Assembly (NCBI RefSeq): GCF_003334315.1
Contig: NZ_QOWR01000120.1
Length of the DNA: 1,220 nt
Direction: 5' to 3' (one strand)
From: Escherichia coli
Lineage (GTDB): Bacteria; Pseudomonadota; Gammaproteobacteria; Enterobacterales; Enterobacteriaceae
Shown: in pieces, positions 1,078 to 1,143 of the stretch
Numbering within the stretch: the first letter of the stretch is position 1
How the letters are laid out: the number at the start of each line of letters is the position of its first letter
Translations under genes and position numbers: made by a program
The notes under the pieces: generated by a model
Told to the model about the DNA's origin: nothing
Database searches by the model: none
What the model saw: only the letters and a program-made list of their open reading frames with translations

Positions 1078-1129
1078 TCCCGTACCTGTTCGGTATTCAG
1101 TAACAAACCAGCATTAAAAATAAACAGAA

Positions 1130-1136
1130 GAAGGAA
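1130..1136 (+). promoter_or_regulatory. Shine-Dalgarno / ribosome-binding site for the PAAR-Rhs gene
   Basis: Purine-rich GAAGGAA within agaaGAAGGAAttgaatcATG; the AGGA core at 1132-1135 sits 8 nt upstream of ATG 1144. Confidence 0.6.
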
Positions 1137-1143
1137 TTGAATC

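What the first reader, a model, noticed from the sequence alone, without database searches (positions are those of the whole stretch)
1078..1143. Short AT-rich spacer lacking a terminator suggests vgrG-rhs co-transcription
The 66-bp spacer is AT-rich compared with the flanking coding sequence. It has only a weak 4-bp inverted repeat (tacc-tgttc-ggta, about 1085-1097) with no following T-tract, and it ends in a good SD. This fits a single vgrG-rhs transcript with independent translation initiation of rhs. Stoichiometric co-expression of spike and cargo would be expected from this.
Basis: seen in the sequence. Interest (0 to 1): 0.3.

Follow-up and report, generated by a model that had tools for sequence, protein, structure and literature searches.

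The report
Ordinary vgrG–rhs operon junction spacer
This 66-base gap is the ordinary junction between two neighbouring genes of an E. coli type VI secretion toxin island (vgrG spike, then Rhs toxin), with no stop or start signal for transcription, only a ribosome-binding site for the second gene.

Summary
vgrG ends at TGA 1075-1077 and rhs starts at ATG 1144. The 66-nt spacer has 36% GC against 53-58% in the flanks and no run of three or more T. An AAGGA Shine-Dalgarno lies 8 nt before the ATG. The 4-bp inverted repeat is real but sits at 1083-1095, and it is broken in 5 of 10 E. coli alleles, so it is noise.

The window is the vgrE/rhsE orphan T6SS island (yncH–vgrG–rhs–ydcD), present in about half of complete E. 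coli genomes. No terminator, promoter, Rfam family or significant RNA structure is found here or in five other vgrG–rhs junction classes from other genera. Only the last 25-30 nt with the Shine-Dalgarno is conserved, and it also precedes rhs genes that have no vgrG upstream.

Published Cappable-seq for EDL933, whose spacer differs by one base, maps a start site 14 nt upstream of vgrG in 7 of 8 conditions and none within 250 bp upstream of rhs.

Co-transcription with independent translation start is therefore well supported, though read-through was never measured directly. "Stoichiometric" co-expression is not supported. This is a textbook operon junction of low interest.

The parts
1..1077 (+). 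3' 1077 nt of vgrG (T6SS spike protein; 'vgrE' / vgrG2 of the RhsE orphan island), stop TGA 1075-1077
   Evidence: ORF in frame 1 runs in from the window edge. It is 100% identical to the gene annotated as VgrG in E. coli 720632. The full protein matches NCBIfam TIGR03361 at 624 bits against a cut-off of 186.
1078..1143 (+). 66-nt intercistronic spacer: A-rich (41% A, 36% GC), with no terminator, no promoter and no ORF
   Evidence: No feature is annotated here in RefSeq.
1083..1095 (+). weak 4-bp inverted repeat tacc-tgttc-ggta; not conserved and judged non-functional
   Evidence: Position. Polymorphisms G1092A and T1094A break it in 5 of 10 sampled E. coli alleles. It is absent from the homologous Pseudocitrobacter spacer.
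1112..1143 (+). conserved rhs leader: the part of the spacer that travels with rhs genes and contains the ribosome-binding site
   Evidence: Homology to K-12 rhsB, which has no vgrG upstream, starts at window 1112 at 81.7% identity. The last ~25 nt are shared with the T6SS-cluster vgrG-rhs junction and with other genera.
1131..1135 (+). Shine-Dalgarno AAGGA, 8 nt before the ATG (9 nt in alleles with an extra T at 1136)
   Evidence: Anti-SD duplex of -5.7 kcal/mol. AAGGA/AGGA plus 7-9 nt plus ATG is conserved in all junction classes. The indel is seen in 6 of 10 alleles.
1144..1220 (+). 5' end of rhs (PAAR-Rhs toxin; MSGKPAARQGDM...), runs off the window
   Evidence: The full protein matches NCBIfam NF041261 RHS_core at 2767 bits against a cut-off of 2000.

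Best explanation
The spacer is a passive intercistronic region inside a vgrG–rhs operon of the E. coli RhsE ('vgrE') orphan type VI secretion island.

Transcription starts at a sigma-70 promoter just upstream of vgrG (TGTACA-16-TATTAT, TSS 14 nt before the vgrG ATG). It runs through vgrG and crosses the 66-nt spacer, which has no terminator and no promoter, into rhs. Ribosomes finishing vgrG at TGA 1075-1077 are released. Translation of rhs then starts on its own at ATG 1144, using the AAGGA Shine-Dalgarno at 1131-1135 in an unstructured A-rich leader.

Only the last ~30 nt of the spacer (the rhs leader) is functionally constrained. The first ~35 nt is lineage-specific filler.

What is shown: the anatomy, the absence of signals, the conservation pattern, and the published TSS map in a near-identical strain. 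What is inferred: physical read-through of RNA polymerase across the junction.
For: Anatomy and identity:
-.

No transcription signals or RNA structure:
- No terminator-like site on either strand of the window.
- Folding 1060-1160 gives z = -0.47 against shuffles.
- No Rfam match even at E<=10.
- No sigma-70 match of 9/12 or better in 850-1143. The one 8/12 match inside the spacer (1114/1137) would start transcription downstream of the ATG.

Comparative evidence:
- Six vgrG–rhs junction classes (E. coli RhsE; E. coli/E. albertii T6SS cluster; Trabulsiella; Pseudocitrobacter; Lelliottia; Citrobacter youngae) all keep the same strand.
- Spacers are ~43-169 nt, with GC 0.32-0.46 and 31-52% A.
- None has significant structure: MFE z from -1.5 to +0.55.
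- The cost of opening the RBS is indistinguishable from shuffled spacers: z from -0.69 to +0.72.
- Only AAGGA plus 7-9 nt plus ATG is conserved, and this segment also precedes K-12 rhsB.
- The junction is intact in about 2,650-2,725 of 5,426 complete E. coli genomes.
- The spacer is about as polymorphic as the neighbouring coding DNA: 5 of 66 sites against 33 of 377.

Experimental evidence (PMC10469882, Table S5):
- In EDL933 the vgrG gene RS10715 has a gTSS at 2052061(-), 14 nt upstream of its ATG, in 7 of 8 conditions.
- The rhs gene RS10710 has no TSS within 250 bp upstream.
- That TSS sits 7 nt after the predicted -10 TATTAT.
- The EDL933 spacer differs from the window only at 1109.

Precedents:
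- In P. aeruginosa PA14, a pBAD promoter placed upstream of hcp2 induces vgrG14 and rhsP2 about 15-fold (PMC3911176).
- For the paralogous EHEC vgrG3–paar junction, the authors report no hairpins in the paar 5'UTR (PMC13141884).
Against: - No RT-PCR, RNA-seq coverage or Term-seq 3'-end data spanning this junction could be retrieved. The Sy et al. 2020 supplements are not held, and Landstorfer 2014 has no Z2257-Z2262 entries.
- The EDL933 tables were cut when stored, so internal sense TSSs (iTSS) further up in vgrG could not be checked at this coordinate.
- Rho-dependent termination cannot be excluded by sequence.
- The locus is reported to be poorly expressed or H-NS-repressed in EHEC. After a promoter swap at a different island (vgrG1), neither VgrG1 nor RhsF protein was detected, which hints at extra post-transcriptional control (PMC13141884).
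Confidence: 0.8

Rival explanations
1. rhs is transcribed mainly from its own promoter, located in the spacer or the 3' end of vgrG, so the two genes are separate transcription units despite the short gap.
For: vgrG-less rhs genes such as K-12 rhsB share the last ~30 nt of the leader and must have their own promoters further upstream. The AT-rich spacer contains -10-like A/T hexamers. A 9/12 promoter-like site lies inside vgrG at 593-620.
Against: No match of 9/12 or better in 850-1143, and the only 8/12 match inside the spacer (1114/1137) would start downstream of the ATG. Cappable-seq in EDL933 found no TSS within 250 bp upstream of rhs in 8 conditions, while the vgrG TSS was detected in 7 of them. 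The 593-620 site is one of 3 hits against 0.8 +/- 0.9 expected and has no experimental support.
Confidence: 0.07
2. The junction attenuates transcription. Partial Rho-dependent termination (or polarity when vgrG or rhs is poorly translated) in the untranslated spacer gives less rhs than vgrG mRNA.
For: The locus is in horizontally acquired, H-NS-silenced DNA, where Rho termination is common (general knowledge). The rhs SD is weaker than the vgrG SD, -5.7 against -10.2 kcal/mol. In EHEC, proteins from vgrG islands remained undetectable after promoter swapping (PMC13141884).
Against: The untranslated gap is only 66 nt and is not C-rich/G-poor (13 C, 11 G), so it is a poor rut site. There is no intrinsic terminator. 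Spacer length and sequence drift freely between lineages, which argues against a conserved attenuator.
Confidence: 0.1
3. The spacer encodes a regulatory RNA structure. A long-range helix (1086-1101 with 1136-1151) covers the SD-AUG linker and the start codon, so that rhs translation depends on ribosomes terminating at the vgrG stop (translational coupling).
For: This helix is the minimum-free-energy fold of 1060-1160. Two polymorphisms (G1092A, G1100A) turn G-U pairs into A-U pairs. An AUUCAG / (C/U)UG(G/A)A pairing can also be drawn in Trabulsiella by eye (sequences).
Against: The fold is no better than shuffles, z = -0.47. The RBS opening cost equals that of shuffled spacers in all 8 junctions tested, z from -0.69 to +0.72. 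The 5' arm is missing or unrelated in other junction classes. The common +T indel at 1136 falls inside the 3' arm. The stop-to-start distance varies from ~43 to 169 nt, and in Pseudocitrobacter the stop moved upstream. The same leader works without any upstream vgrG in K-12 rhsB.
Confidence: 0.04

Closest known systems
vgrG–rhs (spike–PAAR-Rhs effector–immunity) operons of T6SS 'orphan' vgrG islands, e.g. the EHEC EDL933 vgrE locus Z2253-Z2262 and P. aeruginosa PA14 hcp2-vgrG14-PA14_43090-rhsP2
   Same: It is the same locus as the EDL933 vgrE/vgrG2–rhsE island: 98.4% identity over the window, with a one-base difference in the spacer (PMC7216683, PMC12981562). Gene order is vgrG, then PAAR-rhs, then a small immunity-like gene. 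In PA14, a promoter upstream of the unit drives both vgrG and rhs (PMC3911176).
   Different: Nothing material. In PA14 an extra gene lies between vgrG and rhs. Here, and in the E. coli T6SS-cluster paralog, rhs follows vgrG directly, with no chaperone gene (EagR/DUF1795) in between.
Generic E. coli within-operon intergenic spacers (same strand, tens of bases, no terminator, own SD)
   Same: A 66-nt same-strand gap, A-rich and unstructured, with an SD 8 nt from the ATG and no promoter or terminator.
   Different: None found. It is somewhat longer than the very short or overlapping junctions typical of tightly coupled genes, which fits independent rather than coupled initiation.
The hcp3–vgrG3 intergenic region 'h3R' of EHEC (PMC13141884)
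   Same: It is another intergenic region within a T6SS substrate gene string of E. coli.
   Different: According to PMC13141884, h3R contains a terminator hairpin (14 base-base interactions), a promoter and regulatory sites, and it splits hcp3 and vgrG3 into separate operons by RT-PCR. The spacer studied here is 66 nt and has none of these features.
Conserved 5' leader of Rhs elements (rhsA-D of K-12)
   Same: The last ~30 nt before the ATG (cATTAAAAaTAAAcAGAAgAAGGAaTTgAatcATG) is homologous to the sequence before K-12 rhsB, at 81.7% identity from window 1112 onward.
   Different: In K-12 rhsB this leader is preceded by 200 nt of unrelated intergenic DNA downstream of nikR rather than by a vgrG stop codon.

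Membership tests
Within-operon (intercistronic) spacer | Flanking genes on the same strand, separated by a short gap | tested here: met
   vgrG stop at 1077 and rhs ATG at 1144, both on the + strand, 66 nt apart.
Within-operon (intercistronic) spacer | No transcription terminator between the genes | tested here: met
   0 terminator-like sites on either strand, no run of three or more T, and a fold z-score of -0.47. Rho-dependent termination cannot be tested by sequence.
Within-operon (intercistronic) spacer | No promoter or primary 5' end between the genes | tested here: met
   No sigma-70 match of 9/12 or better in 850-1143. Published Cappable-seq for EDL933 shows no TSS within 250 bp upstream of rhs in 8 conditions, while vgrG has one at -14.
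Within-operon (intercistronic) spacer | A single transcript physically spans both genes | not testable with these tools
   No RT-PCR, long-read or coverage data for this junction could be retrieved.
Intrinsic (Rho-independent) terminator | G+C-rich stem of at least 5 bp followed by a U-tract | tested here: not met
   The only hairpin is a 4-bp stem (tacc/ggta) with no T run after it, and it is broken in 5 of 10 alleles.
Known structured RNA (Rfam 15) | Match to a covariance model | tested here: not met
   0 matches at E<=10 over the whole window, both strands.
T6SS VgrG/TssI | Match to the VgrG family model above the curated cut-off | tested here: met
   TIGR03361 at 624 bits against a cut-off of 186, and TIGR01646 at 447 bits, for the full gene in L001, which is 100% identical to the window.
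RHS element core protein (PAAR-Rhs effector) | Match to the RHS_core equivalog; N-terminal PAAR motif | tested here: met
   NF041261 at 2767 bits against a cut-off of 2000. The N-terminus MSGKPAARQGDM contains the literal PAAR motif.
Chaperone-dependent (EagR/DUF1795) vgrG–eagR–rhs arrangement | A chaperone gene between vgrG and rhs | tested here: not met
   No + strand ORF of 20 aa or more lies within the spacer, and nothing is annotated there in RefSeq.
Translationally coupled gene pair | Overlapping or abutting stop/start, or an RBS sequestered by structure that upstream translation opens | tested here: not met
   The stop-to-start gap is 66 nt and ranges from ~43 to 169 nt in relatives. 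The RBS opening cost is no different from shuffled spacers in 8 junctions.

The most novel reading that the evidence does not exclude
The conserved rhs leader is a binding site for a post-transcriptional regulator such as CsrA. It carries two GGA motifs, one in the SD (1133-1135) and one just after the start codon (1150-1152), 17 nt apart, and both are conserved in all junction classes. Such a regulator would hold back Rhs toxin translation independently of VgrG. This could explain why Rhs proteins stay undetectable in EHEC even when transcription is forced (PMC13141884). Nothing here tests it. Both motifs are also explained by ordinary constraints: an SD, and a Gly-Lys codon pair of the PAAR N-terminus.
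Probability: 0.05. Interest if true: 0.4.

Novelty: already known. Interest (0 to 1): 0.08.

Why it matters
It matters little beyond annotation. The result confirms that in this widespread E. coli orphan T6SS island the spike gene and its Rhs toxin gene form one transcription unit, driven from a promoter just upstream of vgrG, and that rhs has its own moderate ribosome-binding site. This helps anyone engineering or inducing the locus: swap the vgrG promoter and keep the last ~30 nt before rhs. It also corrects the idea that co-transcription implies stoichiometric production. No new mechanism or element is involved.

Tried and rejected
- **Rfam search** at E<=10 over the window: nothing.
- **Long-range helix 1086-1101 x 1136-1151** from the MFE fold. 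I followed it as a possible translational-coupling device and rejected it: z = -0.47; no excess RBS occlusion against shuffled spacers in 8 junctions; the 5' arm is not conserved across classes; and a common indel lies in the 3' arm.
rejected as functional, because it is broken by polymorphisms in 5 of 10 alleles.
- **Promoter inside the spacer or the vgrG 3' end**: rejected.
- **Literature search for direct evidence of a junction-spanning transcript**:
  - Two searches returned nothing usable (the second was swamped by unrelated 'RHSE' acronyms).
  - The Sy et al. 2020 dRNA-seq/Term-seq supplements are not held.
  - The Landstorfer 2014 supplements have no Z2257-Z2262 entries.
  - The EHEC 2026 paper tested hcp3–vgrG3 by RT-PCR but not vgrG–rhs.
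- **Internal or antisense TSS near EDL933 2,049,7xx-2,050,2xx**: the search only hit decimals, because those tables were cut when stored. It is uninformative.
- **First version of the RBS-accessibility script**: it timed out. I re-ran it with mononucleotide shuffles.

Full report
**What is in the window.** A frame-1 ORF runs in from base 1 and stops at TGA 1075-1077. A second ORF starts at ATG 1144 and runs off the end (MSGKPAARQGDMTQYGGPIVQGSAGV).

The whole window is 100% identical to many E. coli chromosomes. [quoted passage not shown] They sit in the order yncH – 820-bp AT-rich intergenic region – vgrG – rhs – ydcD – ISAs1 remnants – pptA. This is the RhsE locus, called the vgrE or vgrG2 orphan island (Z2253-Z2262) in EHEC EDL933 (PMC7216683; PMC12981562).

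NCBIfam confirms the families:

| Protein | Model | Bits | Cut-off |
|---|---|---|---|
| VgrG | TIGR03361 | 624 | 186 |
| Rhs | RHS_core NF041261 | 2767 | 2000 |
| downstream protein | YdcD_fam | 215 | 65 |

**Check of the observation.**
- The spacer is exactly 1078-1143, 66 nt.
- Its GC is 0.364, against 0.535 for the vgrG part and 0.584 for the rhs part. Only 2% of 66-nt windows are as AT-rich.
- There is no run of three or more T.
- AAGGA (1131-1135) lies 8 nt before the ATG, with an anti-SD duplex of -5.7 kcal/mol.

The description is therefore correct, with a small coordinate offset. The Shine-Dalgarno is moderate rather than strong: vgrG's own GGAGG gives -10.2 kcal/mol.

**Signals in the spacer.**
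- The consensus scan finds no terminator-like site on either strand of the window and no promoter-like site in or near the spacer.
- My looser scan of 850-1143 finds nothing at 9/12 or better. The one 8/12 match inside the spacer (1114/1137) would start transcription downstream of the ATG.
- Folding 1060-1160 gives -13.7 kcal/mol, z = -0.47 against dinucleotide shuffles.
- Rfam 15 gives no match even at E<=10.
- No + strand ORF of 20 aa or more lies in the spacer, so there is no chaperone gene between spike and toxin.

**Comparative evidence within E. coli.** The junction is intact (at least 80% of a 201-nt or 401-nt query covered) in about 2,650-2,725 of 5,426 complete genomes.

Ten sampled alleles show five variable spacer positions: G1092A, T1094A, G1100A, C1109A, and an extra T at 1136 that changes the SD-ATG spacing from 8 to 9 nt. 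That is 5 of 66 sites, against 33 of 377 in the adjacent vgrG sequence, so the spacer is not specially conserved. G1092A and T1094A both break the 4-bp inverted repeat, in 5 of 10 alleles, so the repeat is chance.

A paralogous junction in the main T6SS cluster (hcp–vgrG–rhs) has a 75-nt spacer. It shares only the last ~25 nt (CAGAAGGAATTGAWTYATG) with this one.

K-12 rhsB has no vgrG upstream and lies 202 nt downstream of nikR. It is homologous from window position 1112 onward. The SD-containing leader therefore belongs to the rhs unit.

**Comparative evidence across genera.** I scanned one genome per species for GGAAAACCNGCNGCNCGNCAGGG. It returned vgrG-linked rhs genes in several genera:

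| Junction | Spacer length (nt) |
|---|---|
| E. albertii (T6SS-cluster type) | 75 |
| Trabulsiella | 68-69 |
| Pseudocitrobacter | 81 |
| Lelliottia | ~43 |
| Citrobacter youngae | 169 |

- All are on the same strand. All are A-rich (31-52% A, GC 0.32-0.46). All lack T runs of four or more, except the long Citrobacter spacer.
- None folds better than shuffles: z from -1.5 to +0.55.
- The free-energy cost of opening the ribosome-binding region (-16 to +13) equals that of shuffled spacers in all eight junctions tested: z from -0.69 to +0.72.
- In the alignment only AAGGA/AGGA, a 7-9-nt linker and the ATG are conserved.
- In Pseudocitrobacter the vgrG stop has moved upstream (GAA to TAA). The former tail codons have decayed into spacer, so the stop-to-start distance is not constrained.

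These results argue for independent initiation and against structure-mediated translational coupling.

- Gene EDL933_RS10715 (vgrG, 2049939-2052047, minus strand) has a TSS at 2052061, 14 nt upstream of its ATG, in 7 of 8 conditions.
- The next gene, RS10710 (rhs, 2045670-2049872), has no entry. Rows 10705 and 10715 are adjacent in the table.
- The TSS lies 7 nt after the -10 hexamer of the predicted promoter TGTACA-16-TATTAT. That promoter region is identical in L001, the E. coli 720632 locus that matches the window at 100%.
- The EDL933 window-equivalent is 98.4% identical, and its spacer differs only at 1109.
- A further TSS at 2045783 lies 113 nt before the rhs stop. This matches reports of internal promoters near the 3' end of rhs that drive toxin-tip and immunity genes (PMC7618764).

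Two related results give context. In P. aeruginosa PA14, an arabinose promoter placed upstream of hcp2 induces vgrG14 and rhsP2 about 15-fold (PMC3911176). For the paralogous EHEC vgrG3–paar junction, the authors found no hairpins in the paar 5'UTR (PMC13141884).

**What remains unproven.** I found no data showing a transcript that physically spans this junction, and no 3'-end map. The tables of internal TSSs were truncated before this coordinate. Rho-dependent termination cannot be excluded, but the gap is short and not C-rich (13 C, 11 G).

**On 'stoichiometric co-expression'.** Co-transcription gives co-regulation, not stoichiometry.
- The two ribosome-binding sites differ by about 4.5 kcal/mol in anti-SD pairing.
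- The assembled spike is three VgrG to one PAAR protein (Shneider et al. 2013; general knowledge).
- An internal TSS near the rhs 3' end, like the internal promoters reported in other rhs genes (PMC7618764), uncouples the downstream genes.

A stronger vgrG site would, if anything, fit a 3:1 need. That is speculation.

**Verdict.** This is an ordinary intercistronic spacer in a known kind of operon. The first ~35 nt are drifting filler, and the last ~30 nt are the conserved rhs leader with its Shine-Dalgarno. The most novel reading still open is a CsrA-type site formed by the GGA motifs at 1133-1135 and 1150-1152. It is untested, and ordinary constraints explain both motifs equally well.

Noticed in passing
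window 1003-1074 (VgrG C-terminal tail); L005, L010, L033, L056, L015, L024: After the conserved LINWNC motif, VgrG carries a ~20-residue Pro/charge-rich tail that ends in a conserved PDMR(E/Q/K)(Y/F) in three junction classes (E. coli RhsE, the T6SS-cluster paralog, Trabulsiella). The tail is truncated in Pseudocitrobacter (…PPKTPG*) and Lelliottia (…ETPPQA*). I did not examine whether this tail helps load the cognate PAAR-Rhs.
   Followed up: partly
window 1136 (GGAATT[T]GAATC): A 1-nt T indel in the SD-ATG linker is common: 6 of 10 sampled alleles carry the extra T. It gives 66- or 67-nt spacers and 8- or 9-nt SD spacing.
   Followed up: yes
L004 3141 onward (E. coli KN13-4), equivalent to window ~1161: Homology to rhs ends after its first six codons (ATGAGCGGAAAACCAGCC|AGGG…). 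An annotated ISAs1-like ISEc1 transposase gene follows ~145 nt downstream, leaving vgrG and the spacer intact but no rhs.
   Followed up: partly
L065 (EDL933) record 2045783 and 2045609, minus strand; equivalent to ~113 nt before and ~61 nt after the rhs stop: Published Cappable-seq TSSs lie inside the 3' end of rhs and just downstream of it, assigned to small hypothetical (immunity-like) genes. This fits the internal rhs promoters described in PMC7618764.
   Followed up: partly
L001 10921-10955: The predicted sigma-70 promoter TGTACA-16-TATTAT sits 7 nt upstream of the experimentally mapped EDL933 vgrG TSS. The resulting leader is only 14 nt long and contains a strong GGAGG SD.
   Followed up: yes
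window 951-1145, minus strand: A 64-aa antisense ORF starts at the CAT that overlaps the rhs ATG (palindromic TCATGA) and runs back across the spacer into vgrG. It is not annotated in RefSeq and is probably spurious.
   Followed up: no
window 593-620, + strand: A promoter-like site, TAGAGA-16-GATAAT (9/12), lies inside vgrG about 520 nt upstream of the rhs start. The window has 3 such hits in total against 0.8 +/- 0.9 expected. There is no supporting evidence.
   Followed up: no
L014 (Citrobacter youngae), reverse strand; positions 8157-8325 of the reverse-complemented locus: This vgrG–rhs spacer is 169 nt. It contains a GCCGG…GCCGG hairpin with a long loop followed by TTTT, so in this lineage the junction may carry a weak terminator or regulatory element.
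   Followed up: no
L059, L030, L022, L038-L040: Near-identical E. coli vgrG–rhs or rhs sequences occur on short contigs of metagenome-assembled genomes labelled Lentisphaerae, Akkermansia muciniphila, Alistipes and Collinsella. These are almost certainly binning contamination rather than real occurrences.
   Followed up: no
L001 17367-500 to 17833: There is a sharp composition break inside the island. The rhs core has 64% GC, the last 500 nt of rhs 41%, and ydcD 27%. This is the classic GC-rich core / AT-rich tip architecture of Rhs elements.
   Followed up: no
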